Shown piece after piece: positions 8,571 to 37,645 of a stretch of DNA of 64,000 bases (the stretch's first letter is position 1; the number at the start of each line of letters is the position of its first letter). The notes below the pieces were generated by a model that was given only the letters and a program-made list of their open reading frames with translations, was not told the DNA's origin and searched no databases. The stretch lies in NCBI GenBank assembly GCA_965261225.1, contig OZ253456.1, forward strand, positions 1,813,864-1,877,863, given 5' to 3'. A program made the position numbers and the translations under genes. The DNA comes from Dehalococcoidia bacterium. Its GTDB lineage: Bacteria > Chloroflexota > Dehalococcoidia > Bin125.

Positions 8571-8740
8571 GCCGCGCAAATTCTCAGCCCACAGAGACAC
8601 ATTCGTGCAATTCGACCGAAAACTTCCCGCCTCGGCCCGACCGCATCCCGGCTGTCAAGCCTGAGCAGGGGAACGAAGCCGCGATGTGAACAGGCACTAG
8701 TTGACTGCCTCGCTCGTTCGATTGCGGCTACCCTCAGCAC

Positions 8741-9637: not shown

Positions 9638-9638
9638 C

Positions 9639-10376
9639 ATGAGCGACCACGAGCAAGAGACCGCCGCCGAGCCGTTTGTCAACGAGATCGAGGTCCGCGG
9701 CCTGCTCGTGGGCGCGTTCCAGGAGAACTGCTGGGTCATCGGTAATCGCCACACCGGTGAGGCAATCTGCATCGATCCGGGCGATCAGGCCGATGACATC
9801 GTGCATATGGCCTCGGAGATGGGCGTCACGATCAAGTTGATCGCCAACTCCCACGCACATCTCGACCACGTGCTGGGCGTTCGTGGTGTGCAGTCGGACA
9901 GCAATGCCGAGTTTCTCCTGCATGAGGCTGACCTCGACATCCTGCAGGGCGCGGCGGAATCCGCTGCGCGATTCGGTATGGAAGTTGAGCAGCCTCCCGA
10001 CCCCGATCACTACATCGACGATGAGCAGAAGGTCGAAGTCGACGGCGTCGAGTTGCATGTGATTCACACTCCGGGGCACACGCGCGGATCGGTCTGCTTC
10101 TACGGGCATGGCGTGCTGTTCTCGGGCGACACGCTGTTCAAACAAAGCATTGGACGCACCGACCTGCCGGGTGGCGACTACAACCAGGAGATGTCGTCGA
10201 TTGTCGACAAGCTGCTGATGCTGCCCGACGAGACGATCGTGCTGCCTGGTCACATGGACCAGACCACCCTGGCCGCGGAGCGGGTGCAGAATCCCTTCAT
10301 CCTGCAAACGCTCGAACAGCGCGGGGCGCAGCCGGGCGAGCGTCGCACGCCGGGTGGGCTGAATCTTCCGAACTGA
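9639..10376 (+). CDS. MBL-fold metallo-hydrolase (glyoxalase II-like)
   Basis: SHAHLDH, HTPGHT.GS, FSGDTLF..SIGRTDLPGGD, LPGH; start at ATG just after the PAC2 stop. Confidence 0.92.
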   Translation: MSDHEQETAAEPFVNEIEVRGLLVGAFQENCWVIGNRHTGEAICIDPGDQADDIVHMASEMGVTIKLIANSHAHLDHVLGVRGVQSDSNAEFLLHEADLDILQGAAESAARFGMEVEQPPDPDHYIDDEQKVEVDGVELHVIHTPGHTRGSVCFYGHGVLFSGDTLFKQSIGRTDLPGGDYNQEMSSIVDKLLMLPDETIVLPGHMDQTTLAAERVQNPFILQTLEQRGAQPGERRTPGGLNLPN

Positions 10377-10408
10377 TCTCCCCAGAATTGAGTAACCGGA
10401 GGACAGGC

Positions 10409-10873
10409 ATGACGGACCGGGCAGCGACACTAACGGCGATGGCTGAGGCGAAGGCCGCGTTGGATGATCGGTTGAGCCGAATCGACGAGGCTCACGGATC
10501 GTGGGAGGGCGCGATTGGCCATTGGTCGGTGACGCAGTTGCTGCAACATCTGCACGGTTGGTTGACTGAAATGACCGCCGGCGTGGAGCGCATGAACGCC
10601 GGCCAGCGTCCAACGCCCAAGGGCGTTGACTACTCAGACCCCGATGACTGGAATCCCGGATTCGTCGCCGAGCGGGGCGAGCAAAGCTACGAAGAAGCGA
10701 GAGCGGCGTTCGACGCTGCGCACGCCGAGTTCGCTGGCGCCGTCGGCGAAGTCGATGCGGGTCGCTTCGGCGAAGGCAAGACGATCAATCGGATGGTCGA
10801 CGGTGTCGTTCTGGAACACTACCCAGAGCATGCCGAGGACATTGATCGATTCTTCGAACCCGCAGACCACTAA
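10409..10873 (+). CDS. DinB/ClbS-DfsB-like four-helix bundle protein
   Basis: GHWSVTQLLQHLHGW, EHYPEH; GGAGG RBS. Confidence 0.8.
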   Translation: MTDRAATLTAMAEAKAALDDRLSRIDEAHGSWEGAIGHWSVTQLLQHLHGWLTEMTAGVERMNAGQRPTPKGVDYSDPDDWNPGFVAERGEQSYEEARAAFDAAHAEFAGAVGEVDAGRFGEGKTINRMVDGVVLEHYPEHAEDIDRFFEPADH

Positions 10874-10967
10874 CGCCGGATAGCGCATGAGCGGCGGGCG
10901 GGCGATACTTGAACGAATCCGTTTGAGTCCCCTTGGCCTGAACCGCGGCCTGAGAAGAGAGTCCATC

Positions 10968-11438
10968 ATGAGCGATGACGAGAGTCTGATCACGCCCGCA
11001 ATGGAGGCCGCCATCGGTATTGAAGGCGAGCCACGGGAAGTGACCATCGACAAAGAGCTGGTGCTGCGCCTGATGCACGCACTGGACGAAGAAGACGAAG
11101 AGTTGATCGCCGCTGTCGAAGCGGGCGACGCGACGTATCCGATCCCGACCTACGCCCTACTCACGACCAGCACTTCGCAGCGCCAAATGTCCGTGCCCGA
11201 CGCTCCTGAGCGCGCGCTGATGGCGGCGGATGCGTGGGAGGTCAAGGCGGATATCCACCTCGGCGACACCATGACGATTGTGCCGCGACTGGCAGAGATC
11301 CAGGAGCGAATCGGCGGCCGGGTCGGACACTCGCTGTTTATTCATCACGAGTGGGTCTACACCAACCAGGACGATGTCGAAGTTGCTCGGGTGCGTCGCA
11401 CGGTGGCGCACTTCCAGGCGCGGCACACAGGGGAGTAA
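10968..11438 (+). CDS. MaoC-like hotdog protein (HadA-like N-terminal type)
   Basis: IGIEGEPREVTIDK, IHLGDTMT, EWVYTNQDD.EVAR. Confidence 0.8.
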   Translation: MSDDESLITPAMEAAIGIEGEPREVTIDKELVLRLMHALDEEDEELIAAVEAGDATYPIPTYALLTTSTSQRQMSVPDAPERALMAADAWEVKADIHLGDTMTIVPRLAEIQERIGGRVGHSLFIHHEWVYTNQDDVEVARVRRTVAHFQARHTGE

Positions 11439-11445
11439 CAGCACG

Positions 11446-11862
11446 ATGACTTTGGAATACGACGCCCTGAGCGAGGGCACAGAGCTCCCAAGCGAACAGC
11501 GCACGCCGACGACCGAACAGGTCATAGCGTTCTGTAACGCGACCGGCAACGGAGGACCGCAATTTCTCGATCCCGAGTTCGCAAAAGAGAAGATGGGCCT
11601 GCCCGGACCGATCATTCCGGGCAATATGAAGCAGGGCTTTCTCGATCAGTACCTGCGCCGGCATTTCGGACGCAATCAGATCACTCGCCTACAGCTCAAT
11701 CATCGCCGCCCAGATGTGCACAACGCCGAGATGACGCTCGGCGGCGAGATTACTCGCACCTACGAGGTTGACGGACGGCGGATGGCCGACCTTGAGATTC
11801 ACATCGACAATCCGCAGGGCGACCGCTCGGTGCGCGGCGCTGCATCGATCGCGTTCGACTAG
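11446..11862 (+). CDS. MaoC-like hotdog-fold protein
   Basis: EGTELP, QVIAFC.ATG...LDPEFAK..GLPGPIIPG, NPQGD.SVRG.A. Confidence 0.8.
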   Translation: MTLEYDALSEGTELPSEQRTPTTEQVIAFCNATGNGGPQFLDPEFAKEKMGLPGPIIPGNMKQGFLDQYLRRHFGRNQITRLQLNHRRPDVHNAEMTLGGEITRTYEVDGRRMADLEIHIDNPQGDRSVRGAASIAFD

Positions 11863-11876
11863 GTCGGACCAGTTTC

Positions 11877-12308
11877 GTGTCTCTGCCGCGTCTGATCGAT
11901 CTGGGTGAGCTGAGCGAAGCTGTCTCGCTGCCCGAGTACTCGGTCGCGCCCGACATCATGGACGTGGCCAAATTCATCGGCGCTGCGGGATTCGCGATTC
12001 CGATCTTTCTCGATCCCGTGGCCGCACGTCAGACAGGACTTGAGGGTCCGCTGATCCCGGCGGAGTACAAGTCGGCATTTCTGCTTGGATATCTTCGACG
12101 ACTGGTGAAACCGAACGGTAAGATCGTCCGTTTGCAATCAGGATTCCGGCGTCCCGACTATCACGGCAATCGTTTCACGATTAGCGGCCAGGTCACGCGA
12201 GTCGATGAGACCGAAGCCGGGCGCGAGGTAAATCTCGAGCTATGGATCGAGCAGGCGTCGGGCGACCGCAGCGTGCGATCATCGGCGGTGGTGTTTCTTC
12301 CGAGTTAG
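11877..12308 (+). CDS. MaoC-like hotdog-fold protein (paralog)
   Basis: FLDPVAARQTGLEGPLIP, FRRPDYHG, GDRSVRS; similar to the preceding gene. Confidence 0.75.
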   Translation: MSLPRLIDLGELSEAVSLPEYSVAPDIMDVAKFIGAAGFAIPIFLDPVAARQTGLEGPLIPAEYKSAFLLGYLRRLVKPNGKIVRLQSGFRRPDYHGNRFTISGQVTRVDETEAGREVNLELWIEQASGDRSVRSSAVVFLPS

Positions 12309-12364
12309 GAATCTTCTGATTAGCTGCCGTCGAAGATCGATCGCCCCCTTCAGCCTCGGTTCGT

Positions 12365-12455
12365 GAGGCTGTCTCAGAACTGCGAGATTCGTCATTCCCG
12401 CGGCGGAGCGTGGGTATGACGGAAGTTGGGGTCGGGCGACTTCTCAGACACGCTC
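12365..12455. mobile_element. Degenerate MITE-like shell enclosing a GTCATTCCCGC-type REP hairpin
   Basis: GAGGCTGTCTCAGAA (12365-12379) vs TTCTCAGACACGCTC (12441-12455), 12/15; inner CGTCATTCCCGCG...GCGTGGGTATGACG 12390-12421. Confidence 0.55.
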
Positions 12456-12538
12456 CTCAAGCCGGGGCCAGGCTTGCGGCAGCTTCACCTTCACCTGGGA
12501 GAGAAAGAGGACATTCAGAGCATTCTTCGGGCCAGCAG

Positions 12539-27066: not shown

Positions 27067-27992
27067 ACGAGTACGTCGAGTCCGACCGCGGCGAAGATGA
27101 TGAACAGATAGGCGATCGATGCGAAGAACAAGCGCATCGGCGGCGTCTGCTCCTTCCAGACTTGCCAGGCGATGTAGATGAAGATCGCGCCCGAGATTGC
27201 GCAAGTCGTCTCGTAGCACCAGCTGAGATGTCCGCCCAGTGGTCCGAGCAGACTGACGGCCACCAACGCGACCGAGTAAATCAACATTTGCTTGCGAGTC
27301 TCACGTTCGCCGGATACGACGGGCAGCATCGGTACGCCGGCCTTGGCGTAGTCGTCGCGGTACTTGAGCGCCAGCGCCCAGAAGTGCGGCGGCGTCCACA
27401 TGAAGATGACCAGAAAGAGGATGAAGGGCGTCCATGTAACATCGCCGGTCACGGCCGCCCAACCGATGAGCGGGGGGATCGATCCGGCGGCGCCGCCGAT
27501 CACGATGTTCTGCTTCGTCGAACGCTTAAGCCAGATCGTGTAGACGAACACGTAGAAGAGCACCGCCGCCTCGGCCAACAAGGCGGCAAACAGATTGACG
27601 GTCAGCGCGAGCTGGATCCCACCGACCGTTGCGAGGAGCACGCTCCAGGCCAGCGCCTGCCAGGGTTGAATCACACCCGATGGCAACGGCCGACCGGCCG
27701 TGCGGTCCATGATTGCGTCGATATCGCGGTCGAACCACTGGTTGAAGGTGTTTGCGCCGCCGGCAGTCAGGACTCCGCCGAGCAGCGTGAGCACGATCAG
27801 CGCGAGGCCGTCGACGAAACTATCTCGCGGCCAACCGTCGGCGGCGACGATCATCGTGGGCACGGTCGTGACCAGCAGCAGACCAATGATGCCCGGCTTG
27901 GTCAGGTCCCAGAATCCTCGCGCGACATCGGTTGTGCGACGAGGGACCGAGATTGCCGCAGGTCGTTGCAGGGTGAGCGGACGTTCGGTCAT
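27063..27992 (-). CDS. ctaB: Protoheme IX farnesyltransferase (heme O synthase)
   Basis: LTKP, DRDIDAIMDRT..RPLPSG, NIVIGGAAG, WTPPHFWALA. Confidence 0.96.
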   Translation of the reverse strand: MTERPLTLQRPAAISVPRRTTDVARGFWDLTKPGIIGLLLVTTVPTMIVAADGWPRDSFVDGLALIVLTLLGGVLTAGGANTFNQWFDRDIDAIMDRTAGRPLPSGVIQPWQALAWSVLLATVGGIQLALTVNLFAALLAEAAVLFYVFVYTIWLKRSTKQNIVIGGAAGSIPPLIGWAAVTGDVTWTPFILFLVIFMWTPPHFWALALKYRDDYAKAGVPMLPVVSGERETRKQMLIYSVALVAVSLLGPLGGHLSWCYETTCAISGAIFIYIAWQVWKEQTPPMRLFFASIAYLFIIFAAVGLDVLV

Positions 27993-29047
27993 CCGTTGCT
28001 CTCACTCTCCGCCGAGACCTCGTGGGCGCCGATTGATGCCGGCGTTAGATGTCCGCTGCTCCGTGGATCGGATTGCAGCCATCCGGCGCGGTAGGCCGCC
28101 AACAACGCAGATGCCGCAGCCAGAAGCCAGACGATGGACCCCATCGAGAGGTGCAGCGCGCGCGACCAGGAATCGAAGTTGATCCAGATCATCGCAGCGC
28201 CCATGAAAATCTGACCGACGTAGAGAGCCGTCGCTCCGTGAATCAGGGACGTCAATGGTCGCGATCTCGGGCGCAGCATCACGACGCCCATCGAAGCGCC
28301 GAACAGGGCGAGTCCGCCAATCAGGACCAGGAATCGGTGACCCATATTCCATTGAGCGTACTCGCCCTCGGGAAACAGTCCGCCGTAGCAGAGCGGCCAT
28401 TGATTCCCGCAGGCTGCGCCTCCAGGACCGACGTGTGCTCCCGCGTCAGGTCCAGCCCCGACGTGCGTCACGTAGGAACCAACCACCACCACGACGTACA
28501 CCAGGACTGCGGTGACCAGGACGATGCGAGCGAAGTTTCGCGCCTGAGACGGCGAGTCCGTGCCGAGCGGTGCATCGTCCTCGAGTGTCACGGCTCGCCA
28601 GGCGAAGGTGCTCAACCACGAGACGGCGACTGTCACGAGGATCAACATGGCGGTGGCGAGGTGCAAGGTGACAATGAGCGATTCAAGCTGTTCGGTCACG
28701 GTCAGGCCGCCGAGAACAACCTGAAGTGCAAGCAAAGGAATCGCGAGCACTGCGGGGAGCCAGATGCCGGCGCGGTCTCGATACTGCCGCCATGCGACGA
28801 TGGCGTAGCCAAGGATGATGAACCCCATGATTGCGGCGACCAGCCGGTGGGTCCATTCAAGCCAGACCTGGTGTGCCGCGAATCGACCAAAGTCGCCTGA
28901 GGGAATCATGCCTCCGTAGCAGGCGGGCCAGTCGGGGCAGGCGAGGCCCGAGCCGGTGACTCGCACAATCCCGCCCAGGGCTGTGAGCGCCAATAGACCG
29001 ACGACCAGTCCCAGACCAACGCGTTGAAACCTGGTCATCGATGCCAT
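27989..29047 (-). CDS. ctaA: Heme A synthase (COX15/CtaA)
   Basis: GSGLACPDWPAC, EWTHR, HLATA, C.NQWPLC, HR, LHL. Confidence 0.93.
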   Translation of the reverse strand: MASMTRFQRVGLGLVVGLLALTALGGIVRVTGSGLACPDWPACYGGMIPSGDFGRFAAHQVWLEWTHRLVAAIMGFIILGYAIVAWRQYRDRAGIWLPAVLAIPLLALQVVLGGLTVTEQLESLIVTLHLATAMLILVTVAVSWLSTFAWRAVTLEDDAPLGTDSPSQARNFARIVLVTAVLVYVVVVVGSYVTHVGAGPDAGAHVGPGGAACGNQWPLCYGGLFPEGEYAQWNMGHRFLVLIGGLALFGASMGVVMLRPRSRPLTSLIHGATALYVGQIFMGAAMIWINFDSWSRALHLSMGSIVWLLAAASALLAAYRAGWLQSDPRSSGHLTPASIGAHEVSAESESNG

Positions 29048-29134
29048 CGAACGCAGATCCGTCTAGCAACCGGCGAGTAAGGGACTTGCCCCGTTAAGTG
29101 TTGCACTCTTCCGCGTATCGGCGAACTGCAGAGC

Positions 29135-29186
29135 GCACACTGCTTCACTGTGCGTCACTGTGCGTCTTCACTGTGCAGCAGTGTGC
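29135..29186. repeat. Intercistronic hairpin with three TCACTGTGC repeats in the loop
   Basis: GCACACTGCT 29135-29144 / AGCAGTGTGC 29177-29186; repeats at 29145, 29155, 29168. Confidence 0.7.
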
Positions 29187-29187
29187 A

Positions 29188-30189
29188 TCACTGGTCACCC
29201 GGTCGCGGCCCCAGGGTTGGAATCTCTCCGTGGACGCGGATCTGCATGTCGCGCACAGTGTCGTTGCGGCGATCCTTGAAGCCCTCTCGCTCCGCCCAGA
29301 AGTAGAACGTGACAATGACGGCGAGCGCGAACATCATCGAGCCCGGCACCCACATAATTCCCGCGCCGATTCGTTGGTCGATTAGCGCGGTTGGTCCCCA
29401 TTCGCGCACCGAGGCGGCCGTGGCGTAGGTGTCGTAGATCGCTTCTCCGACATTGATCAGGATGACTCCGAGCCCAATGTTCTGCAGGATCGCAACGACC
29501 AGCAGCGCGCATCGCCAGACGTGATGGGGACGCAGGCGCGTGGCATCTACCCCGATCACCATCCACCAGAGCAGGATGGCGCCGAAGAGGAAGACGCCGT
29601 GTTCGACGAAGTGCAACGGCTCCGAAGCGATGGCGGCGTCATAGGCGGCAGGCCAATGCCAGCTCCAGACGCTCGCGATATAGACGATGATCGCGACCGG
29701 CGCCCAGGTCAGGAATCGGACTACCCGAGAATTGAGGAACGGCACCAGGTAGGTAGAGCGAATGCGGGGTGAAGCAGCCCTGAGCGCGAGGGTTGCCGGC
29801 GCTCCCAGCAGCATCAGCGGCGCCACCAGCATTGTGATGAATACGTGCTGCAGCATGTGTACCCAGAACAGATCGTCCGAGTACGTGTCGATCGGGGACA
29901 TCAGTCCCAGCAACATGAAGACCCAGCCGGCGAAGAAACACCAACCATGCCATTGAGGAAAGCGGAAGGTTGGCGAATCACGCCGCAGCCGATAGTAGCC
30001 CCAGGCGTAGAGTCCGCCCACGATCAGAACCAGCGCCAAGCCGGGAGCATCCACGCTCCAGGCGCCCAGGGCATGAAGGAAGCCGCCCGACTCGGCGTAC
30101 CGACCGTCGTGGGCCAGCGCCGCTGAGGGCGCGAGTACCGCAGCGGTCCCGCAGGCGACCGCGAGCAGCGCTCGCGGCCTGATTGTCAC
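29188..30189 (-). CDS. ctaG: caa3-type oxidase assembly factor (Caa3_CtaG family)
   Basis: SPID..SDDLFWVHMLQH, WHWP..YD, HFVEH, DQRIGAGIMWVPG. Confidence 0.92.
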   Translation of the reverse strand: MTIRPRALLAVACGTAAVLAPSAALAHDGRYAESGGFLHALGAWSVDAPGLALVLIVGGLYAWGYYRLRRDSPTFRFPQWHGWCFFAGWVFMLLGLMSPIDTYSDDLFWVHMLQHVFITMLVAPLMLLGAPATLALRAASPRIRSTYLVPFLNSRVVRFLTWAPVAIIVYIASVWSWHWPAAYDAAIASEPLHFVEHGVFLFGAILLWWMVIGVDATRLRPHHVWRCALLVVAILQNIGLGVILINVGEAIYDTYATAASVREWGPTALIDQRIGAGIMWVPGSMMFALAVIVTFYFWAEREGFKDRRNDTVRDMQIRVHGEIPTLGPRPGDQ

Positions 30190-30202: not shown

Positions 30203-30823
30203 TCAGCTGAGGAAGAAGACGAGCGGGAAGATCACCAGCAGCCATACAAAGCCCACGAAGTGCCAGTACAGCGTGGCAGCCTCAATCGCCGTGTTGCGTT
30301 TAGCGTCGAAGTGTCCCAGCAATCCTCGCAACCACTGCGCGAAGATGAATACGAGACCGCCGATCACGTGGGCGCCGTGGAAGCCGGTGAGCGTGTAGAA
30401 GGTCGCCGCGTACGGGCCGTCGGAGATGCCGAATCCGGCGTGCTGCCACTCGAAGTACTGGTTGACGATGAAGGCAATGCCAATCACCAGCACAATTGCC
30501 ATGCTGATGATCATCGCCTTGCGATTGCCCTTGCGGATCGAGAAGGCGGCTATCTGCATCGGGATGGAGGTACTGACCAGCAGGATCGTGAACAGAATCG
30601 GCCGCAACTCTGCGCCTTCGAGCCGGTGCGCGCCGTTGGTCGGCTCCCAGAAGAGGGTGTCGCTGTGCAAGGCGAGCATCGCCGCGATCAGTCCGGCAAA
30701 GAACATGATCTCGGAGAAGATGAAGAAGATGATGCCCCACAGGCCGGTCGTCATTGGCTCGTCGCCGACGAGGAAGCTGCGCACGGGGTGTACCCGCTTG
30801 TGAGTGATGGCTCCTGCTGCCAT
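30203..30823 (-). CDS. ctaE: Cytochrome c oxidase subunit III (short, 5-TM form)
   Basis: FIFSEIMFF, FYTLTGFHGAHV, YWHFV..VW. Confidence 0.94.
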   Translation of the reverse strand: MAAGAITHKRVHPVRSFLVGDEPMTTGLWGIIFFIFSEIMFFAGLIAAMLALHSDTLFWEPTNGAHRLEGAELRPILFTILLVSTSIPMQIAAFSIRKGNRKAMIISMAIVLVIGIAFIVNQYFEWQHAGFGISDGPYAATFYTLTGFHGAHVIGGLVFIFAQWLRGLLGHFDAKRNTAIEAATLYWHFVGFVWLLVIFPLVFFLS

Positions 30824-30825
30824 GA

Positions 30826-32565
30826 CTAACTCTCCTCCCGCCTGGACGCAGAGGGCGTCTTCGCGCCGCTTCCTCCGTTGTGCCCGTTGCGCCCGTTGTT
30901 GACGTGGTAGTGCGGGTCGTCCTGCAGCTTCTCACCGAAGCGCAGGTCGAAGAGCGGTCGCTCGGAGCGAATCTCGGGCAGTGAGTCGAAGTTGTGCGGC
31001 GGCGGCGGTGAGGTGGTCGCCCACTCGAGCGTGGTGCCTTCCCACGGGTCGGAGCCGGCGCGCTCGCCCCACTTGACTGAGTAGAAGACGTTGTAGATGA
31101 AGACCATCATGCCGGCGGCGGAGACGAATGCGCCAATCGTGATCAGCATGTTCATCAGCTCCCAGCCGGGGTTGTCGACGTAGTCGTTGATCCGGCGCGG
31201 CATGCCATCGAGGCCGAGCAGGAGCTGAGTGAAGAAGACCAGGTTGACGCCAATGAAGACCAGCCAGAAGTGCAGCTTGCCCAGTCCTTCGTTCATGAAC
31301 TTGCCGAAGATCTTGGGGAACCAGTAGTAGCAACCGGCGAGGAAGCCGAACGTCGCGGCGATCGACATCGTGTAGTGGAAGTGGCCGACGACGAAGTAGG
31401 TGTCGTGGAGGGCGAAGTCGACGGGAACCGCAGCGTGGAAGACGCCGGTGATTCCGCCGATCAGGAAGAGCATCAGGAAACCGACGCTGAAGAGCATCGC
31501 GGTCGGGAAGATGTTCGAGCCGCGCCACATGGTAGCGATCCAGTTGAACATCTTGACGCCGGTTGGGATGGCAATCAGGAAGGTCGCGCCCATGAAGAAG
31601 GGCAGGAAGACGCCGCCGGTTGTGAACATGTGGTGGGCCCAGACGATGAACCCGAGCAAGCCAATACCGATCAGCGCCAGGACCATCGAGCGATAGCCGA
31701 AGACCGGGCGTCGGGTGAATACACCGAACACGTCGGAGACGATGCCCATGGCGGGCAGGATCATGATGTAGACGGCTGGATGCGAATAGAACCAGAACAG
31801 GTTCTGCCAGAGCAGTGGCTGTCCGCCGGCGGCCGGGTCGAAGAAGGCTCCGCCGGCGCCATTGCGGTCGATGAAACCGAGCGCCAAGGCCGCGGCGAGG
31901 ACCGGGGTCGAGAGCAGGATCAGCAGTCCGGTGACGAGTGTGGTCCAGGTGAACAGCGGCAAACGCCACATGGTCATCCCGGGCGCACGCATCTTGAAGA
32001 TCGTGACCAAGAAGTTCACGGAACCGAAGATGGCCGCCTGACCCAACAGGATGACACCGACCAACCACATGTCCATCCCGGCGCCGGGCGGTTGGGCGTT
32101 GTTGCCGGTGTCGAGCGTGATGGGCGGGTAAGCAGTCCAACCCGCGGCGGCAGTTCCGCCCTCGACGGCGAAACTGAGCGTCAGCAGCACTCCGCCGAAC
32201 AGGAAGATCCAGAACGAGAGCGCGTTGATGCGCGGGAACGCCATGTCGAGCGCGCCGATTTGCAGCGGCATCGCGTAGTTCATGAACGCTGCGCCAATCG
32301 GCAGCAGGAAAAGGAAGATCATCACGCTGCCGTGCATCGTGAAGATCGAGTTGTAGGTCTCGGCCGAGATGATGGTGCCGGTCTGCGCGAGCTCGGTGCG
32401 CATGACCAGTGAGAATGCCATGCCGACGAGTCCGAATGCGCCGGCCGTCCAGAGGTACATGATCCCGATCCTCTTGTGGTCGACCGTGGTCAACCATTCG
32501 AGGATCGTGCGCCAGACATTTGCGCCTGCATATGGTGTGGTCTGAGCCCCCGCCAGTGTCGCCAT
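30826..32565 (-). CDS. ctaD: Cytochrome c oxidase subunit I, A2 type
   Basis: DHKRIG, TMHG, WFYSHPAVY (YS motif), VWAHHMF, HDTYFVVGHFHY, GMPRR. Confidence 0.97.
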   Translation of the reverse strand: MATLAGAQTTPYAGANVWRTILEWLTTVDHKRIGIMYLWTAGAFGLVGMAFSLVMRTELAQTGTIISAETYNSIFTMHGSVMIFLFLLPIGAAFMNYAMPLQIGALDMAFPRINALSFWIFLFGGVLLTLSFAVEGGTAAAGWTAYPPITLDTGNNAQPPGAGMDMWLVGVILLGQAAIFGSVNFLVTIFKMRAPGMTMWRLPLFTWTTLVTGLLILLSTPVLAAALALGFIDRNGAGGAFFDPAAGGQPLLWQNLFWFYSHPAVYIMILPAMGIVSDVFGVFTRRPVFGYRSMVLALIGIGLLGFIVWAHHMFTTGGVFLPFFMGATFLIAIPTGVKMFNWIATMWRGSNIFPTAMLFSVGFLMLFLIGGITGVFHAAVPVDFALHDTYFVVGHFHYTMSIAATFGFLAGCYYWFPKIFGKFMNEGLGKLHFWLVFIGVNLVFFTQLLLGLDGMPRRINDYVDNPGWELMNMLITIGAFVSAAGMMVFIYNVFYSVKWGERAGSDPWEGTTLEWATTSPPPPHNFDSLPEIRSERPLFDLRFGEKLQDDPHYHVNNGRNGHNGGSGAKTPSASRREES

Positions 32566-32608: not shown

Positions 32609-33961
32609 CTAGCCGCCGGCCTCGATCAGTTCAGCCAGTTTGCTGGGGATTTCGTCTGCTGCGTGCGGCCGTTCGACCGTCTGCAGCCAGGCGTAGATGT
32701 CGGCAACATCGTCGTCGGAGACCTGATCCGGCGGGAATGCGGTCATGGCCTCGAGCGGCTCGCGATACTGCTGGACAACACGCTCGAGCGGAACAACCGT
32801 CATCGCGATCGTTGGACCGACGAGGCCCTCGCCGCGGTCGCCGTGGCAGACGTTGCAGCCCAGCGAGAAGAAGAGGTTCTGTCCGTTGGCCGGGTTGCCG
32901 ATGGCGCCCTCCTCCAGCTCGACCTCTTCCTCGCCGCCGAAGTCGCCCTCGATCGGCTCGGGTGCGTCGCCCGCCTTGTCCTCGAACCAGGCGTGGTAGT
33001 CGGCCATCGACAACGCCCTGACCGTGTAGATCATTCGTGCATGGTCACGGCCGCAGAATTCGGCGCATTGGCTCTGGAAATCACCGGCTTCCGTGATCCG
33101 GATCCACAACGTCTGCACGCGCCCGGGGACCGCGTCGAGCTTGGTCAGGAACTGCGGCGTGTAGAAGGCGTGGAGCACGTCTGCCGAGGCGATATTGAAG
33201 CGAATCATCTGACCAACCGGGACGGTCACAACTGGCGTGTTGTCGGCGGCCTGGAGACGACCCTCGGGGACGGTATCGGTGCCGTTGAAGACACGCATGA
33301 CCTCGAAGCCGGCGCTGTGCCGGATGGCGACCGTGCCGTTGACCGCCCGCTCGACGGTGACGACATCGCCCGTCCGAGCGACGACGCGCATGTGCTCAAC
33401 GCCCATCTTCAAGGTGACGAACGGGACCACGAGGGATGGATCCTCAAGATGAATCTCGGTCTCGGCCAGGTCGGCGGACATACTTTCGGCCAGCTCAGTA
33501 CCGAGCGGGACCGCGTAGTTGAACGCCCAGGCCCACTGTCGGCCCTGGACATCGACGATGGTGACTTCCTCCTCGGGATCAGCTGCCGCCTGAATGTCCT
33601 GCAGGACGAAGAACGAGACGAAGAACAGGATCACGACGATGACGGTTGGGATGCCGGTCCAGAGGATTTCGGCGGTGGCGTTGTGTGCGACCTGCGTGGG
33701 CAGTTCATCGTCGGATTTGCGCTTGTAGCGGAAGACGACCCAGAGGATCATCGCTTCGACGATGATGAAGACGATCAAGCCAATGGCAAGGAAAATGAAG
33801 TAGAGCGTGCGGATCGAATCGCCTTGTTCGGAGACCGATTGGGGTGGGGCGACCTGCGCACCGGCCAAACCCGAGAGAGCGAGCAGCGCCAGGGCGGTCG
33901 CGCCCATGACCAGCGTCAGCCGACCGAATCGCGTTCGCCACAACCGTTGAAATGCCGTCAC
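32609..33961 (-). CDS. ctaC: Cytochrome c oxidase subunit II with inserted domain and fused cytochrome c
   Basis: EILWT, QWAW.F.Y, DVLHAF, CAEFCGRDHARM (CuA), CNVCH heme c. Confidence 0.94.
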   Translation of the reverse strand: MTAFQRLWRTRFGRLTLVMGATALALLALSGLAGAQVAPPQSVSEQGDSIRTLYFIFLAIGLIVFIIVEAMILWVVFRYKRKSDDELPTQVAHNATAEILWTGIPTVIVVILFFVSFFVLQDIQAAADPEEEVTIVDVQGRQWAWAFNYAVPLGTELAESMSADLAETEIHLEDPSLVVPFVTLKMGVEHMRVVARTGDVVTVERAVNGTVAIRHSAGFEVMRVFNGTDTVPEGRLQAADNTPVVTVPVGQMIRFNIASADVLHAFYTPQFLTKLDAVPGRVQTLWIRITEAGDFQSQCAEFCGRDHARMIYTVRALSMADYHAWFEDKAGDAPEPIEGDFGGEEEVELEEGAIGNPANGQNLFFSLGCNVCHGDRGEGLVGPTIAMTVVPLERVVQQYREPLEAMTAFPPDQVSDDDVADIYAWLQTVERPHAADEIPSKLAELIEAGG

Positions 33962-34030
33962 GCGCCCGCTCCCTTCTCTCCCTGTTTCAGCCCTGTTTCA
34001 GCACTATTCGTCGTCGTTACTTCGTCGTCG

Positions 34031-35179
34031 TTACCCGGCGCCGTCTGCGCCTGCGCGGTGCATCAACGGCGCGTCCGAGTCGCGGTCGTCATGGTGGTCG
34101 TCGTGTGCTGGCTCCTCAAAGGACTTGATGTCCTCCAGGAACCAACCGACGCCACCAAACACAATCAGGGTAATTCCAGCCCCCAATACGTAGGAGGTGA
34201 AGACCGCGCCCGCCGCCGTCATCATCAGGCCGATGGCAAAGATAATCGGAGAGATGCTCGGCGGTGGCATGTGAATGCCAGGTGGTGGAGACACGTCGGG
34301 CATGATCTTCAACGGATGCTGCCGAAACTCGGCGGGGCCGCCCGCTTCGAAGTAGCCCATGTCTTCCAGTAACCAGCGAACCGCCGAGATGATAATCAGG
34401 GTGATACCGACGCCCAGCAGTTCGCCGACAAACACGGCGCCGGCAGCCGTCATAATCAGACCTAGTGCAAACAACACGGGCGCGAGACTTGGCGGCGGAA
34501 GATGCGACTCGGGCGCGTCGTGCGCGCCGTGTCCGTGCTCGTCTGCCAGGCCCGACGCCAGGCCCGACGCCAGCGCCAGCGTGGCGGCCGGCTGTTGAGC
34601 CGGAGCAGCGAGCGCCGGCACATCGCCGGTGCGTGACGCCGGCAGCGGCTGGAGGTAGCTGTCGGCTACGACCTTGCGTTCGTTTCGGTAGGCCATCGGC
34701 CGCAGGGCCGGTGGCAGCAGCCCGGCGATGGGCTTGAACAGGTCGGGACCGCTGTAGGCCTGCTGCAGATCGAGGCCGAAGCTGGCCGGCCGCTGCCGGT
34801 AGGCGATCAGCCTGTGCAGCTTGATTCCGTTGATTCGGCAGAGTCGGATGGCCCGTCCGCTCTGTCCCATGGGGACATAGAGGACTAAGGGCGCCGCCTG
34901 AGCCAGCGGCTTCCAGCGCTCAATCGCAGTTTGATTCGTGACTTCATGGGTCAGCGCAAGGTCGCCGGCGAGGGCGATAAAGTGTCCGGGCTCGTCCGTG
35001 ACAACGATGTCGGGGTACAGCCAGCCACCCGACCTGACTCGCACGCCCATCTGTTCTTCAGGGAAGTTGGTCGTGACTTCGCGATCAGGGAACTCGTCGT
35101 TGGGATAGCCGTACGACGCCTCAGCGATCTGCTGAAGGACGTTCCCGCGCTTCTGCCTCGCCGATTCCAGCGTGGGCAT
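34031..35179 (-). CDS. Putative oxidase accessory subunit: soluble domain plus duplicated HxPPPS TM hairpin
   Basis: HLPPPSLAP...WLLED and HMPPPSISP...WFLED repeats; His-rich tracts; first gene of the cta operon. Confidence 0.7.
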   Translation of the reverse strand: MPTLESARQKRGNVLQQIAEASYGYPNDEFPDREVTTNFPEEQMGVRVRSGGWLYPDIVVTDEPGHFIALAGDLALTHEVTNQTAIERWKPLAQAAPLVLYVPMGQSGRAIRLCRINGIKLHRLIAYRQRPASFGLDLQQAYSGPDLFKPIAGLLPPALRPMAYRNERKVVADSYLQPLPASRTGDVPALAAPAQQPAATLALASGLASGLADEHGHGAHDAPESHLPPPSLAPVLFALGLIMTAAGAVFVGELLGVGITLIIISAVRWLLEDMGYFEAGGPAEFRQHPLKIMPDVSPPPGIHMPPPSISPIIFAIGLMMTAAGAVFTSYVLGAGITLIVFGGVGWFLEDIKSFEEPAHDDHHDDRDSDAPLMHRAGADGAG

Positions 35180-35204
35180 TGCCGTCTGTTCGCCTCTCGC
35201 TCAG

Positions 35205-35228
35205 CCGCGCCCCAGGCATGGGGCGCGG
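35205..35228. terminator. GC-rich hairpin (citrate synthase terminator or cta operon leader structure)
   Basis: CCGCGCCCCA-ggca-TGGGGCGCGG; no U tract. Confidence 0.4.
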
Positions 35229-35320
35229 TCGATCTCCGATCCTAACCCAGCCCTGCGACAGTGGCTATCCCCTCAAGCTGACTTGAGTCCCAGGAGTCCA
35301 CAGATTTCGCAACCCGACTG

Positions 35321-36490
35321 CTAGCTGGAGAGCGATCGAGCCGGCTGGTTGACGGGAATGTAGCGAGGCCGATAGATCGCCACGCCGCGACCATTGCGCG
35401 CGCGTGTGCGCTCGTCAACGATCTGAGCGCCGATCCCGGCGATCCGCGACCAACCGAACAGCGTCGTGTAGTAGTCAGGGTCGGTGAAGCCCAGGGCATG
35501 GACCAGGCTGCCGGAAATCAGGTCGACGTTCGGGTACGGGTTCGAGACCTTCGGGTTCTCGCTCAGCACCTTGATCCCGGCTTCGCGAACCGCCTTGACC
35601 ACGTTGAACCAATAGTCGTCGGGGCAGAGTTCCTCGCCGACGCCCAACTGGACCTTGGCCCGTGGGTCTTCTCGGCGCAGAACCGCGTGGCCGAATCCGA
35701 AGATGAGCCCGCCGCCGGCCAGACGTTTGCGTAGAATCTCCGTCGCTACTTCGTGGTCGGTCGTGTTGACGTCGCGCACCATTTTGAAGGCGTCCTGGTT
35801 GGCCATGCCGTGCCGTGGCCCGGCAAGCGCGTTCATGCCCGACGTCATCGAGCGATACATGTCGGCCAGGCCTGAGGCCACTGCACGACCGGTGAAGGTC
35901 GAGAGGTTGCCGCCGCCGTGGTCGGCGTGCAGGTTGTAATAGACCGACAGCAGACGGGTCAGCGCTTCCTCGTCGCCACCGGGCATGCCCAGCATGTGGA
36001 CGAAGTTGTTCACGTAGCCGCGTGCGGGTTCCGAGGGAATCGGGTCGCCCCAGCCTTCACGGTTGCGGAAGATGGCCGCGAGCGCGGCTGGCGTCCGGGC
36101 GACCAGGTTGAGCGCATCCTCGTAGTAGTCATCGGTCTTGCCAGTCATACCCAGGATCTGGATGGCGGCGCAGAACTGGTCCATCGGATGGCCGGATGGC
36201 GGCAGCGCCGAGATTGCGGCCACTGCCTCCTCAGATACCTCAGAACGCTCTGCGATGTCATCGGCAACAGCCTGGCGCTCGACGTCAGTCGGCAGCGTTT
36301 TGTTGAACAACAGATGGATGATGTCCTCGGACGGCAGGAAAGCCAGTTCGGCGATCGGGTAGCCGACGTAGGAAACACCCTCTTGCGGGTCGACGTAGCT
36401 GGTTTCGCAGGTACCCACCGGATAGCCGCGCAGGCCTGTATCGAGATTGGCGTTGGTGATCGTGAACTCAATCGTCGGAATGTCAGGCAC
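35321..36490 (-). CDS. gltA: Citrate synthase, eukaryote-like type
   Basis: GLRGYPVG, GHPMDQF, HADHGGGNLS, LAGPRHGMANQ, GFGHAVLR.EDPR, YPNVD; RBS supports GTG 36490. Confidence 0.9.
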   Translation of the reverse strand: MPDIPTIEFTITNANLDTGLRGYPVGTCETSYVDPQEGVSYVGYPIAELAFLPSEDIIHLLFNKTLPTDVERQAVADDIAERSEVSEEAVAAISALPPSGHPMDQFCAAIQILGMTGKTDDYYEDALNLVARTPAALAAIFRNREGWGDPIPSEPARGYVNNFVHMLGMPGGDEEALTRLLSVYYNLHADHGGGNLSTFTGRAVASGLADMYRSMTSGMNALAGPRHGMANQDAFKMVRDVNTTDHEVATEILRKRLAGGGLIFGFGHAVLRREDPRAKVQLGVGEELCPDDYWFNVVKAVREAGIKVLSENPKVSNPYPNVDLISGSLVHALGFTDPDYYTTLFGWSRIAGIGAQIVDERTRARNGRGVAIYRPRYIPVNQPARSLSS

Positions 36491-36613
36491 CGGCGTCCCT
36501 TTCTCCGCGCGCACCGTGAGGTAGTGGATGGACACCGCGTCCCGGTGCGCACGGGAGGCGGCACATCTCGCTCGTGTTGCGTCTCGCTTCGACTGCCGGC
36601 CGGGTGTGGCCGA

Positions 36614-37645
36614 TTAGCCATTGACCGCGAGCAGGCGGAACCGTTTGCGACCGTTGGGGGCCTGGATTTCGATCTGCCGGTCGGCAGTTTGGTCGAGTAA
36701 TCCACGACCGAGCGGACTCTCAACCGAAATCCGCCGCGCCGCGGCATTCGCTTCGGTGGTTCCAACCAGAGTGTACTCTCTGGCTTCGCCCAGCAAGCCG
36801 CCGTCATCGTCGACTTCGACGACCGAAACGAGGCTGCCCAACTTCGCCCGACCGGTCGCTCGCCCACCGCCGACCGCAGCGTGCGCAATTTGGTACTCGA
36901 GCTCGTCGATCCGTGATTTGAGGCGCTCCTGATGCTCGCGTGCAGCCTCAAGCGGAGCGTTTTCGCGGATATCCTTGTCCTCGCGCGCAGCGGCCACAGC
37001 CTGGATCGCCTCGGGCATCTCCGCGTTGAGCTGTTCCAGTTCGTCTTTCAGTGACTGGAGCCCGGCGGCGGTCATTTCAAAGGTCTGCGCCTGTTCGTGC
37101 TGGAACCGAGACCCGGCACGAACCACACCGGCGGCACGCTTAATCCGCAGGTAATTGCCCAGGTTCTGCGCGCTGGCCTGGCCCTCGGCATCGACGGTGA
37201 CCGTGTATTCCTGCTTCCAGCAATAGCGCAAGAATTCCTTAACCGGCTGCAGGCGCGACGCGAGATCCATGGCATTGGCGCCGATCGTCTCCTGAAAGCC
37301 CTCCATCGTCTTGGGCGAGAGTTCCGAGATCGGCGTGGTCGGACCGAAGTGCCAGAGAAAGCGCGTGACCGCTTCACGCGCCGGCTCGTCGAGGACAAAT
37401 GCGCCGCGGCGGGGCCGGGTCACAGTGGTCGTCTTGCGACGCGAGCGCTTGGCCTCCCGCTCTTCCTCCCAGTTGAAGTATTCCATCACCGCCAGGTCCA
37501 ACGTCATCGACTGCGCGGCCGGGCCGGAACCGTTGCCAGGCTGTGCGGCAAATGGCTCATCAAAGACCTCGGTGTCACCCTCCACCACATCATCCACGAG
37601 TTCTTCCACCGCGTCGGCTGTCTGATCGTCGTCAAAGAATGCCAT
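36614..37645 (-). CDS. greA: Transcription elongation factor GreA with ~190-aa N-terminal extension
   Basis: MTAAGLQSLKDEL, KDIRENAPLEAAR, GSLVSV, YTLVG..EAN, ISVESPLG.GL, APNG. Confidence 0.88.
   Translation of the reverse strand: MAFFDDDQTADAVEELVDDVVEGDTEVFDEPFAAQPGNGSGPAAQSMTLDLAVMEYFNWEEEREAKRSRRKTTTVTRPRRGAFVLDEPAREAVTRFLWHFGPTTPISELSPKTMEGFQETIGANAMDLASRLQPVKEFLRYCWKQEYTVTVDAEGQASAQNLGNYLRIKRAAGVVRAGSRFQHEQAQTFEMTAAGLQSLKDELEQLNAEMPEAIQAVAAAREDKDIRENAPLEAAREHQERLKSRIDELEYQIAHAAVGGGRATGRAKLGSLVSVVEVDDDGGLLGEAREYTLVGTTEANAAARRISVESPLGRGLLDQTADRQIEIQAPNGRKRFRLLAVNG

What the first reader, a model, noticed from the sequence alone, without database searches (positions are those of the whole stretch)
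34031..35179. Candidate new oxidase subunit: nuclease-like domain fused to a duplicated CoxIII-type hairpin
Seen: the first gene of the cta operon has a ~135-aa soluble domain (YPDIVV...IALAGDL...ERWKPLA...LYVP), a His-rich linker, two near-duplicate HxPPPS-TM-TM-W.LED units and a His/Asp tail. CtaD here lacks a C-terminal TM extension and CtaE is the 5-TM form. Known: these two helices are supplied by the CtaD tail in Bacillus or by CtaF in Actinobacteria. Inference: this protein supplies them, in two copies that might bridge an oxidase dimer. It would tether a PD-(D/E)XK-like domain lacking the E-x-K residues, a possible nucleic-acid-binding or metal-sensing link between oxidase assembly and expression.
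Basis: partly seen in the sequence, partly recalled or inferred. Interest (0 to 1): 0.78.

Follow-up and report, generated by a model that had tools for sequence, protein, structure and literature searches.

The report
Oxidase subunit with dead-nuclease-like domain
The first gene of this bacterium's cytochrome oxidase operon joins a nuclease-shaped but apparently inactive cytoplasmic domain to two copies of the membrane hairpin that the oxidase's shortened subunit III lacks, an arrangement kept throughout one order of Dehalococcoidia and not found described in print.

Summary
ORF 34031-35179 (-) encodes 382 aa. Residues 1-145 fold confidently (pLDDT 87) into a restriction-endonuclease-like domain. 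An acidic, His-rich linker follows, then two tandem TM hairpins that are true duplicates, then an acidic His/Asp tail.

A hairpin-only profile matches TM1-2 of canonical subunit III (Thermus caa3 I+III, E 1.9e-5; Rhodobacter CoxIII, E 5.3e-5) and the C-terminal helices of Bacillus QoxB (E 7e-4). CtaE here is the 5-TM form and CtaD has no TM tail. The genome has one oxidase, and no other hairpin reached significance in it. So the protein very probably supplies the missing subunit III helices, as CtaF does in Actinobacteria. This is inferred, not shown.

The fusion occurs in 64 of 65 genomes of the order, always at citrate synthase - X - ctaC-D-E-G-A. The soluble domain is under selection as strong as the hairpins (dN/dS 0.12). 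Its wider family, which has no Pfam model, carries D...E-V-E. The fusion clade has lost that motif and gained invariant E63, H66, H78, E79 and R88, so it is probably not a nuclease.

The same domain is elsewhere fused to CoxB, tethered to a ferredoxin, or encoded beside the cta cluster. Its role is unknown. Dimer bridging and nucleic-acid binding have no support.

The parts
34031..35179 (-). Whole ORF, 382 aa: soluble domain, linker, two TM hairpins, tail. First gene of the cta operon.
   Evidence: N-terminus MPT... nearly invariant in 66 homologues. One copy in the genome.
34745..35179 (-). Residues 1-145: cytoplasmic domain with a restriction-endonuclease-like (PD-(D/E)XK) fold. D57 is kept; the second motif is lost (D73-L74-A75).
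   Evidence: AF2 pLDDT 87.2. VIA Z up to 8.3 to YaeQ; 29 of 50 rows are nucleases or REase-like by title. Motif counts. dN/dS 0.12. No Pfam, NCBIfam or PADLOC family.
34640..34744 (-). Residues 146-180: conserved basic extension (AYSGPDLF..LLPPALRP..YR..R), predicted helical. A similar LLPxxLR tail ends many stand-alone relatives.
   Evidence: Invariant G144, P145, D146, P156, P161, Y164, R165. Helices 148-152 and 157-175. Net charge +2. Tails of P0097, P0098, P0101, P0104, P0138.
34514..34639 (-). Residues 181-222: variable, acidic, His-containing linker of low confidence. The His-rich run DEHGHGAHDAPESH (213-226) spans its end and the start of hairpin 1.
   Evidence: pLDDT below 50. Median charge -6 with 3 His. 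dN/dS 0.26. An in-frame 12-nt deletion variant at 34545 in one DNA run.
34340..34513 (-). Residues 223-280: hairpin 1 (H-L-P-P-P-S, two TM helices, W..LED), subunit III TM1-2 type.
   Evidence: VIA match of model 221-282 to the COX3 N-terminus (9f5x_2D Z 6.4; 7jro_c Z 6.1). Hydrophobic stretch 230-272.
34280..34339 (-). Residues 281-300: cytoplasmic loop between the hairpins.
   Evidence: dN/dS 0.12.
34112..34279 (-). Residues 301-356: hairpin 2 (H-M-P-P-P-S, two TM helices, W.LED).
   Evidence: PF12270 positions 80-125. VIA match of model 300-359 to M. smegmatis CtaF 81-139, Z 6.6. Profile hits.
34031..34111 (-). Residues 357-382 plus stop: acidic His/Asp tail.
   Evidence: median charge -9, 4 His. 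dN/dS 0.46. In-frame 12-nt insertion variants at 34037 in two DNA runs.
35205..35228 (-). GC-rich stem-loop upstream of the start codon. It is kept as a structure with different sequences in orthologous loci.
   Evidence: No Rfam match. No T-run after it.
35227..35272 (-). Conserved non-coding block with a possible promoter (TAGCCA, 17 nt, TAGGAT at 35239-35267).
   Evidence: Invariant columns in 10 aligned loci. Read by eye: 8 of 12 consensus positions, below the 9 of 12 the scan requires, so the scan did not call it.
32609..33961 (-). ctaC: subunit II with a C-terminal cytochrome c domain.
30826..32565 (-). ctaD: subunit I with a hydrophilic tail and no extra TM helices. It is the only COX1 in the genome.
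30203..30823 (-). ctaE: 5-TM subunit III, lacking TM1-2.
   Evidence: COX3 profile positions 74-251 of 258.
27989..30189 (-). Caa3-type CtaG (29188-30189) and heme A synthase CtaA (27989-29047).

Best explanation
The ORF encodes a subunit of the organism's single caa3-type cytochrome c oxidase.

Membrane part. It is two tandem copies of the TM1-TM2 hairpin of subunit III. One copy completes the 5-helix CtaE into the canonical 7-helix subunit III, as CtaF does in Actinobacteria and the subunit I tail does in Bacillus. The second copy takes a neighbouring peripheral position. The homology and genomic complementarity are shown. The position in the complex is inferred.

Topology. There is no signal peptide, and four TM helices follow the soluble domain. 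So the soluble domain, the linker, the inter-hairpin loop and the tail should all lie on the cytoplasmic (N) side. This is inferred.

Acidic, His-rich segments. By analogy with the subunit III N-terminal region that lies near the D-pathway entrance in Rhodobacter, they most likely act as a proton-collecting surface. This is inference from position and composition only.

N-terminal domain. It has a PD-(D/E)XK fold taken over from a small, single-copy Dehalococcoidia protein family. In this clade it lost the E-x-E motif and fixed a new set of residues (E63, H66, H78, E79, R88). It most likely no longer cuts nucleic acid and instead serves as a cytoplasmic accessory module of the oxidase: a structural or docking piece on the N face. 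This is inferred, and its actual partner is unknown.
For: Homology of the hairpins:
- The hairpin profile A6 against the PDB gives Thermus caa3 I+III residues 545-603 (E 1.9e-5), R. sphaeroides CoxIII 7-62 (E 5.3e-5), mammalian COX3 3-62 (E 6e-4 to 1.4e-3), B. subtilis QoxB 579-620 (E 7e-4) and E. coli CyoB 581-637 (E 0.34).
- Structure search matches hairpin 2 to M. smegmatis CtaF 81-139 and hairpin 1 to the COX3 N-terminus.
- PF12270 matches 63 of 66 members at E below 0.1.

Complementarity within the genome:
- CtaE is the 5-TM form and CtaD has no tail helices.
- There is one COX1. The only strong hairpin-profile matches are the two in this ORF (E 6e-26 and 2.5e-25); the five others have E 0.07 to 1.

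Synteny:
- 57 of 58 species-level loci with the fusion have ctaC directly downstream; the remaining contig ends inside the gene. All 58 have citrate synthase upstream.
- In Limnocylindria, Chloroflexia and related loci the hairpin gene without the soluble domain follows ctaE.
- In at least one genus of the order the frame runs on into ctaC (P0082; G448, a 722-aa open frame).

Conservation:
- 64 of 65 genomes of the order and 10 of 10 genera carry the fusion.
- dN/dS is 0.12 for the domain, 0.12-0.15 for the hairpins, 0.26 for the linker and 0.46 for the tail.

Links between the domain family and the oxidase:
- About six clusters are fused to CoxB.
- In family f125 the domain gene lies beside the cta cluster in 3 of 3 loci fetched, and within 4 kb of COX1 in 7 of 11 sampled genomes.
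- 134 of 138 genomes with the domain also have COX1, against 126 of 263 without it.

Loss of the catalytic motif: position 75 is E in 26 of 29 wider-family rows but A in 62 of 65 fusion-clade rows. E63, H66, H78, E79 and R88 are 65 of 65 in the clade and rare outside it.

Literature: review and preprint passages say CtaE plus CtaF equal subunit III, that subunit III has a loop near the D-pathway aspartate, and that a cytoplasmic sub-structure sits at that entrance in actinobacterial complexes.
Against: - No physical evidence exists that the protein is part of the oxidase.
- This sequence is below Pfam's cut-off for Cyt_c_ox_IV (22.8 bits against 26.9).
- Actinobacterial CtaF chains do not appear in the sequence search of the PDB. 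They appear only in the structure search, at a middling Z of 6.6.
- One hairpin would be enough: single-hairpin genes exist in other Chloroflexota (L082, L086, L088, L092). The second copy therefore has no assigned site.
- Stand-alone relatives of the domain in four other families (G228, G372, G292, G220) are not near cta genes. The ferredoxin-tethered form in f110 lies 24-50 kb from COX1. Many oxidase-bearing families lack the domain altogether; in f4, for example, 24 of 25 genomes have COX1 and 0 of 25 have the domain.
- The co-occurrence count is inflated by relatedness.
- The proton-antenna idea rests on composition and on my recollection of the Rhodobacter N-terminal histidine work, which I could not read.
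- Fold matches have Z of 8.3 or less, a range the tool itself calls middling.
Confidence: 0.65

Rival explanations
1. The protein is an assembly factor rather than a stoichiometric subunit. It would hold the place of the missing subunit III helices, or chaperone CtaD or CtaE during biogenesis, and then leave. The soluble domain would recruit a biogenesis partner.
For: The gene sits at the head of an operon that also holds the biogenesis genes ctaG and ctaA. In family f125 the stand-alone domain gene is divergent from ctaA or follows ctaG. In f110 the domain is tethered to a 2x[4Fe-4S] ferredoxin. From my own recollection, not from any call, mitochondrial heme A synthesis needs a ferredoxin.
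Against: The hairpin is homologous to a permanent structural element of every 7-TM subunit III. No other significant match to the hairpin profile is found in the genome. The f110 ferredoxin gene is not near ctaA.
Confidence: 0.15
2. One reading: the soluble domain still binds nucleic acid or senses a metal. For example it might bind the operon's own leader hairpin, linking oxidase assembly to expression. The two hairpins would bridge two oxidase monomers.
For: The fold is that of nucleases. PD-(D/E)XK proteins often dimerise (my own recollection). A structurally conserved stem-loop lies upstream of the start codon. Invariant His and Glu residues plus the His-rich linker and tail could bind metal.
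Against: The domain's net charge is about 0 (median -1, range -3 to +3 in 58 orthologues). The E-x-E motif is lost. Nothing ties the stem-loop to the protein. No evidence bears on a dimer. The wider family is single-copy and often membrane-tethered, and has no match among known defence systems.
Confidence: 0.1
3. The fusion is an artefact: two neighbouring genes joined by a frameshift or a gene-calling error, or a decaying nuclease gene next to ctaF.
For: Elsewhere the domain and the hairpins do exist as separate genes.
Against: The frame is continuous in 64 of 65 genomes of the order, with no stop inside most matches. dN/dS is 0.12 in the domain. Indel variants in the linker and tail are multiples of three. 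The N-terminus is conserved.
Confidence: 0.01

Closest known systems
Actinobacterial CtaF (cytochrome aa3 subunit IV; Pfam PF12270 Cyt_c_ox_IV)
   Same: A separate small membrane protein with four TM helices. Its last two helices replace TM1-2 of subunit III beside a 5-TM CtaE (review passages). There is a weak Pfam match and a structural match of hairpin 2 to CtaF 81-139.
   Different: Here both hairpins are of the TM1-2 type; both match profile positions 79-125 only. The gene is first in the operon, not after ctaE. A 200-aa soluble domain is fused to it. There is no sequence-level hit to CtaF chains in the PDB.
TM1-TM2 of canonical 7-TM subunit III (R. sphaeroides CoxIII, mitochondrial COX3, and the subunit III part of the Thermus caa3 I+III fusion)
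   Same: A shared motif H-x-(P/V)-x-P-S-x-x-P ... W, with profile E-values of 1.9e-5 to 1.4e-3.
   Different: Here it is detached from TM3-7, duplicated in tandem and joined to a soluble domain.
C-terminal helices 13-14 of quinol oxidase subunit I (B. subtilis QoxB, E. coli CyoB)
   Same: The same hairpin supplied in another way: QoxB 579-620, E 7e-4; CyoB 581-637, E 0.34. In family f125 of this class the hairpin lies between ctaD and ctaE, and the COX1 open frame is about 640-670 aa, so it is probably fused to CtaD.
   Different: In this genome CtaD ends without these helices.
Small PD-(D/E)XK-fold proteins: YaeQ, TT1808/Uma2 (DUF820), XisH
   Same: The same core fold: VIA Z 8.3 with rmsd 3.5 over 114 residues to YaeQ 2g3w_B, 7.0 to TT1808 and 6.9 to XisH-like 2okf. 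There are faint Pfam hints to Uma2 and BsuBI_PstI_RE in relatives.
   Different: Sequence identity is 8-14%. No family model matches. The second catalytic motif is absent here. The family is membrane-associated and linked to oxidase genes.

Membership tests
Subunit III TM1-2 hairpin module (CtaF-like split subunit III) | Significant sequence-profile similarity to TM1-2 of solved subunit III chains | tested here: met
   E 1.9e-5 (2yev_A 545-603) and 5.3e-5 (1m56_C 7-62). 22 of 29 listed hits are this element in COX3, QoxB or CyoB.
Subunit III TM1-2 hairpin module (CtaF-like split subunit III) | Partner subunit III lacks TM1-2 and subunit I lacks helices 13-14 | tested here: met
   CtaE matches COX3 profile positions 74-251 of 258. 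CtaD is covered by TIGR02891 to residue 531, followed by a hydrophilic tail.
Subunit III TM1-2 hairpin module (CtaF-like split subunit III) | Encoded in the oxidase operon | tested here: met
   Directly upstream of ctaC in 57 of 58 loci. In other Chloroflexota the hairpin gene follows ctaE.
Subunit III TM1-2 hairpin module (CtaF-like split subunit III) | Physically part of the purified oxidase, at the subunit III TM1-2 site | not testable with these tools
   Needs biochemistry or cryo-EM.
Pfam PF12270 Cyt_c_ox_IV | Score at or above the curated gathering cut-off (26.9 bits) | tested here: not met
   22.8 bits, E 1e-4, for this protein. 63 of 66 clade members match at E below 0.1, best 5e-7. 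P0072 and P0080 carry the family in the precomputed table.
PD-(D/E)XK nuclease superfamily | Alpha-beta-beta-beta-alpha-beta core fold | tested here: met
   Top VIA rows are YaeQ (Z 8.3, 8.2, 8.0). 29 of 50 rows are nucleases or REase-like by title. The same picture holds with the full-length model. Z values are middling.
PD-(D/E)XK nuclease superfamily | Catalytic residues: D of the 'PD' motif plus (D/E)-x-K (or E-x-E) on the next strand | tested here: not met
   D57 is present. Positions 73-75 read D-L-A here, and A75 occurs in 62 of 65 clade members. The wider family has E-V-E, with E75 in 26 of 29.
PD-(D/E)XK nuclease superfamily | Nuclease activity | not testable with these tools
   Needs an enzyme assay.
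Known anti-phage defence nucleases (PADLOC) | Match to a defence-system model | tested here: not met
   No family at E up to 1 for the domain or for six stand-alone relatives. The domain is single-copy in nearly all sampled genomes that carry it (G593 had 2 matches).

The most novel reading that the evidence does not exclude
The small PD-(D/E)XK-fold family found here is a so far unrecognised cytoplasmic partner of heme-copper oxidases across Dehalococcoidia. It is a nuclease fold exapted for respiration. In different lineages it is fused to the subunit III hairpins, fused to subunit II, tethered in the membrane with a ferredoxin, or encoded beside ctaA. It would dock on the N face of the enzyme or of its biogenesis machinery, for instance to gate or feed proton uptake at the D-pathway mouth, or to bring an electron donor to heme A synthase. 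In the fusion clade a new His/Glu site (E63, H66, H78, E79) replaced the old acidic triad.
Probability: 0.3. Interest if true: 0.75.

Novelty: new variant of a known kind. Interest (0 to 1): 0.6.

Why it matters
Subunit III is known to be built in several ways: 7 helices, 5 plus a subunit I tail, or 5 plus CtaF. This adds a fourth solution, a tandem duplicate of the hairpin carrying a folded cytoplasmic domain, fixed in a whole order of largely uncultured marine Chloroflexota.

Bacterial oxidases rarely carry sizeable N-side domains. In mitochondria and Actinobacteria such additions sit at the proton entrance and tune the enzyme. A nuclease fold reused there would be an unusual case of exaptation.

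It would also give a handle on an unannotated protein family that is present in about a third of the sampled Dehalococcoidia genomes.

Tried and rejected
- Complex prediction of CtaD + CtaE + residues 215-365 gave no verdict (score 0.02 against a mark of 0.32; the partner's own fold was uncertain). It says nothing either way.
- phmmer of the TM part alone against the PDB gave only chance-level hits. The full-length profile gave weak COX3 and QoxB hits, E 0.08-2. Only the hairpin-only profile reached significance.
- Foldseek found no match at E of 0.001 or better for either model.
I used the fusion-clade alignment instead.
- The promoter and terminator scan found nothing in 33900-35450. Rfam found nothing in 35100-35400.
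- PADLOC gave no hits. The ESM Atlas returned only unnamed Chloroflexota clusters, one auto-named 'putative Restriction endonuclease domain-containing protein'. PDDEXK families scored 0.79, which is a lead only.
- Earlier findings of this scan: none near this place.
- RNA evidence: contigs of two metatranscriptome libraries lie on 34699-34882, 34989-35191 and 34846-35015. The depth is low, DNA carry-over cannot be excluded, and parts of the gene without cover mean nothing.
- Literature searches found nothing on such a fusion. The term sets were: 'Chloroflexi, cytochrome c oxidase, subunit IV, CtaF' (0 papers); 'restriction endonuclease-like, cytochrome c oxidase, subunit, fused, Chloroflexi' (none of the 10 listed of 39 holds the first term); and 'subunit III, five transmembrane, heme-copper oxidase...'.
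- The Varanasi and Hosler review was not held. A search for the proton-antenna work found nothing usable.
- Supplementary files were not consulted.
- I considered that neighbours of the domain gene share an oxaloacetate theme. It is too thin to use; see Noticed in passing.
Full report
**What is there.**
On the minus strand the window carries an operon. It runs ORF X (34031-35179, 382 aa), ctaC (COX2 plus a cytochrome c domain), ctaD (579 aa), ctaE (206 aa), a Caa3-type ctaG and ctaA. A citrate synthase gene ends 141 nt upstream of X.

X has no family above threshold in Pfam or NCBIfam. Its only notable match is Cyt_c_ox_IV (PF12270) at 22.8 bits against a cut-off of 26.9.

**The membrane part.**
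Residues 223-280 and 301-356 are a true tandem duplication. BLASTP gives 59% identity over 39 aa with E 2e-15. Smith-Waterman scores 185 against 26.8 +/- 5.5 in 1000 shuffles. Each unit is H-x-P-P-P-S, a roughly 40-residue hydrophobic hairpin, and W..(L)ED.

Both units match only positions 79-125 of PF12270, the second half of actinobacterial CtaF.

I built a profile from 33 hairpins taken from this window and 19 other Chloroflexota loci and searched it against the PDB. It hits:
- the start of the subunit III part of the Thermus caa3 I+III fusion (E 1.9e-5)
- the N-terminus of R. sphaeroides CoxIII (E 5.3e-5)
- mammalian COX3 residues 3-62 (E 6e-4 to 1.4e-3)
- B. subtilis QoxB residues 579-620 (E 7e-4)
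- E. coli CyoB residues 581-637 (E 0.34)

In total 22 of the 29 listed sequences are this same structural element.

The structure search agrees at middling scores. Hairpin 2 aligns to M. smegmatis CtaF 81-139 (Z 6.6). Hairpin 1 aligns to the COX3 N-terminus of two mitochondrial enzymes (Z 6.4 and 6.1).

Passages of a review and a preprint state that CtaE plus CtaF make up subunit III in Actinobacteria, with CtaF giving TM1-2. That the quinol oxidase subunit I tail plays the same part is my own recollection; the QoxB and CyoB hits are consistent with it.

**Why it should belong to this oxidase.**
- CtaE matches only positions 74-251 of the 258-position COX3 profile, so it has five helices.
- CtaD is covered by the subunit I model up to residue 531 and ends in a hydrophilic tail.
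- The genome is one contig, 98% complete, and holds a single COX1.
- The hairpin profile finds only the two copies in X at significant E-values (6e-26 and 2.5e-25). Five further matches have E 0.07 to 1.

So if this enzyme has a seven-helix subunit III equivalent, X supplies the missing two helices.

Synteny supports this. A scan of species-representative genomes gave 77 loci. Of these, 58 encode the full fusion. All 58 have citrate synthase upstream, and 57 have ctaC immediately downstream, followed by ctaD, ctaE, ctaG and ctaA where the contig reaches. The remaining contig ends inside X.

In Limnocylindria, Chloroflexia and related MAGs a hairpin gene without the soluble domain sits after ctaE, at the classical ctaF place. 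It takes several forms:
- one TM helix plus one hairpin (about 115 aa)
- one hairpin alone with His-rich flanks (L082)
- TM, two hairpins, TM and a cupredoxin domain (about 375 aa)

One hairpin can therefore suffice. The duplication recurs, and the site of the second copy is open.

**Spread and constraint.**
The order holding the window is a single family in the genome set. In it, 64 of 65 genomes and 10 of 10 genera have the fusion, one copy each. The one without it is 87% complete. In at least one genus the frame continues into ctaC (P0082; G448, 722-aa open frame).

Pairwise dN/dS against ten orthologues, by region:

| Region | dN/dS |
|---|---|
| Soluble domain | 0.12 |
| Hairpins | 0.12-0.15 |
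| Linker | 0.26 |
| Tail | 0.46 |

Variants in two DNA runs carry 12-nt indels in the linker and tail, which keep the frame.

**The soluble domain.**
Modelled with 29 diverse relatives, residues 1-194 reach mean pLDDT 87.2 and pTM 0.77. The order of elements is helix, strands, helix, strand, helix and two strands, followed by a helical extension.

Aligned against 48,161 PDB representatives, the three best rows are YaeQ proteins (Z 8.3, rmsd 3.5 over 114 residues; then 8.2 and 8.0). By title, 29 of the 50 rows shown are restriction endonucleases, other nucleases or 'restriction endonuclease-like' proteins. Four rows are clearly other folds. The full-length model gave the same picture. The tool warns that such Z values are middling, so I take the fold class as supported and no closer kinship.

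An exhaustive search with residues 1-194 found 58 cluster representatives. They include:
- stand-alone proteins of 135-180 aa
- forms with two TM helices in front
- forms with a 2x[4Fe-4S] ferredoxin, two TM helices and then the domain (P0093, P0124)
- fusions to the front of subunit II (P0118, P0128, P0134)

None has a Pfam family for this part.

A follow-up search found about six CoxB fusions covering 86-100% of the 448-aa query, at 47-87% identity to it (P0118, P0142-P0145, P0134). That architecture is therefore real.

**The active site is remodelled.**
The wider family keeps P-D (28 of 29) and E-V-E on the next strand (E73 in 21 of 29, E75 in 26 of 29). The fusion clade keeps D57 (65 of 65). 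It has A at position 75 in 62 of 65 and never E there. Position 73 varies (D 52, E 7, V 5, I 1).

In exchange, E63, H66, H78, E79 and R88 are invariant in the clade (65 of 65). Outside it they are rare (3, 1, 0, 1 and 4 of 29).

The domain's net charge is about zero, with median -1. I conclude that it is probably not a nuclease and shows no sign of nucleic-acid binding. A new His/Glu site arose with the fusion, and its ligand is unknown.

**Is the domain family tied to the oxidase beyond this clade?** Partly.

In favour:
- The CoxB fusions described above.
- In family f125 the stand-alone gene lies divergent from ctaA in two loci and directly after ctaG in a third (L101-L103).
- By coordinates, the domain lies within 4 kb of COX1 in 7 of 11 sampled f125 genomes.
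- A GreA-like gene flanks the domain gene both there and near X in the window. This suggests that the neighbourhood is old and that the fusion arose between neighbours.
- In a class-wide sample, 138 of 401 genomes have the domain, nearly always as one copy, and 134 of those also have COX1. Of the 263 genomes without the domain, 126 have COX1 (I compared the handle lists by eye). Related genomes are not independent, so this is only suggestive. The unpublished genome G654 is inside these tallies.

Against:
- In G228, G372, G292 and G220 the gene is not within 10 kb of cta genes.
- In f110 the ferredoxin-tethered form is 24-50 kb from COX1.
- Whole oxidase-bearing families lack the domain; f4 has COX1 in 24 of 25 genomes and the domain in 0 of 25.

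**Topology and a mechanism.**
There is no signal peptide and the domain is followed by four TM helices. The domain, the linker, the inter-hairpin loop and the tail should therefore all be cytoplasmic. This fits the cytoplasmic N-terminus of canonical subunit III.

The linker and tail are consistently acidic and His-rich (median charges -6 and -9; 3 and 4 His). In the alignment to Rhodobacter CoxIII, the His-rich stretch before the hairpin lines up with its N-terminal H..H..H segment.

Review passages say that subunit III has a loop near the D-pathway aspartate and that its removal shifts the pH dependence of proton uptake. They also say that actinobacterial complexes build an extra cytoplasmic sub-structure at this entrance.

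My best reading is that these segments form a proton-collecting surface and that the folded domain is an N-side accessory piece. That specific N-terminal histidines act as an antenna in Rhodobacter is recalled, not read.

**Upstream region.**
A 46-nt block (35227-35272) is nearly invariant across ten orthologous loci. It contains TAGCCA, 17 nt and TAGGAT. The stem-loop is kept as a structure, but with different stem sequences in different loci. A conserved Shine-Dalgarno region follows. There is no T-run after the stem and no Rfam match. X probably has its own promoter and a structured leader. Nothing links the leader to the protein.

**Verdict.**
The inference that X supplies the missing helices is well supported by homology, complementarity and synteny, but it is not shown physically. 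Dimer bridging and a nucleic-acid or metal-sensing role are unsupported.

The membrane module is a variant of a known solution. What appears undescribed is the tandem duplication, the fused and remodelled nuclease-fold domain, and the wider oxidase association of that domain family. My searches found nothing in print, and public annotation calls these proteins hypothetical.

Noticed in passing
window 35227-35272 and 35205-35228 (- strand): There is a nearly invariant 46-nt non-coding block with a possible promoter (TAGCCA, 17 nt, TAGGAT). It is followed by a stem-loop whose stem differs in sequence between orthologous loci but keeps pairing, and then a conserved Shine-Dalgarno region. No Rfam family matches.
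   Followed up: partly
window 35321-36535 (-); L011 about 9910-12473; L012 about 8407-10493: The gene upstream of the domain gene handles oxaloacetate in three different settings. It is citrate synthase in all 58 fusion loci, an oxaloacetate decarboxylase or pyruvate carboxylase-like subunit with a biotin carrier in G228, and PEP carboxykinase in G372. The enzyme names for G228 and G372 are my reading of the N-terminal sequences only. G292 (Lhr-like helicase) and G220 (methionine salvage genes) do not fit. This may be chance.
   Followed up: partly
L104 5433-6890 (G532); also P0093 and P0124: In another Dehalococcoidia family the same domain ends a 485-aa protein. That protein is made of a 2x[4Fe-4S] ferredoxin, an Ala/Pro/Glu-rich linker and two TM helices: a membrane-tethered ferredoxin of unknown partner.
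   Followed up: partly
L074, L076-L081, L085, L089-L091 (match at about 8001; about 375-aa ORFs); P0083-P0087: Limnocylindria- and Chloroflexia-type ctaF-position genes encode TM, two subunit III-type hairpins, TM and a C-terminal cupredoxin (plastocyanin-like) domain. This is another lineage-specific fusion on the same hairpin module, this time on the outer side of the membrane.
   Followed up: partly
L101-L103 (family f125), between ctaD and ctaE: A single hairpin lies directly after ctaD, and the COX1 open frames are about 640-670 aa. In this family the hairpin is probably a C-terminal extension of subunit I, as in Bacillus. Three ways of supplying TM1-2 therefore coexist within one bacterial class.
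   Followed up: no
window 36614-37645 (-) and L101 10501-11286 (-): A protein with a GreA/GreB-like C-terminal part flanks the domain gene both in the window (beyond citrate synthase) and in family f125. This hints at an old shared neighbourhood.
   Followed up: no
window 32609-33961 (-), ctaC residues about 150-235: Subunit II is long (450 aa). The NCBIfam CtaC and CoxB models span residues 19-326 and 48-327 while covering only about 200-240 model positions. This suggests an insertion of about 80 residues between the TM hairpin and the cupredoxin domain.
   Followed up: no
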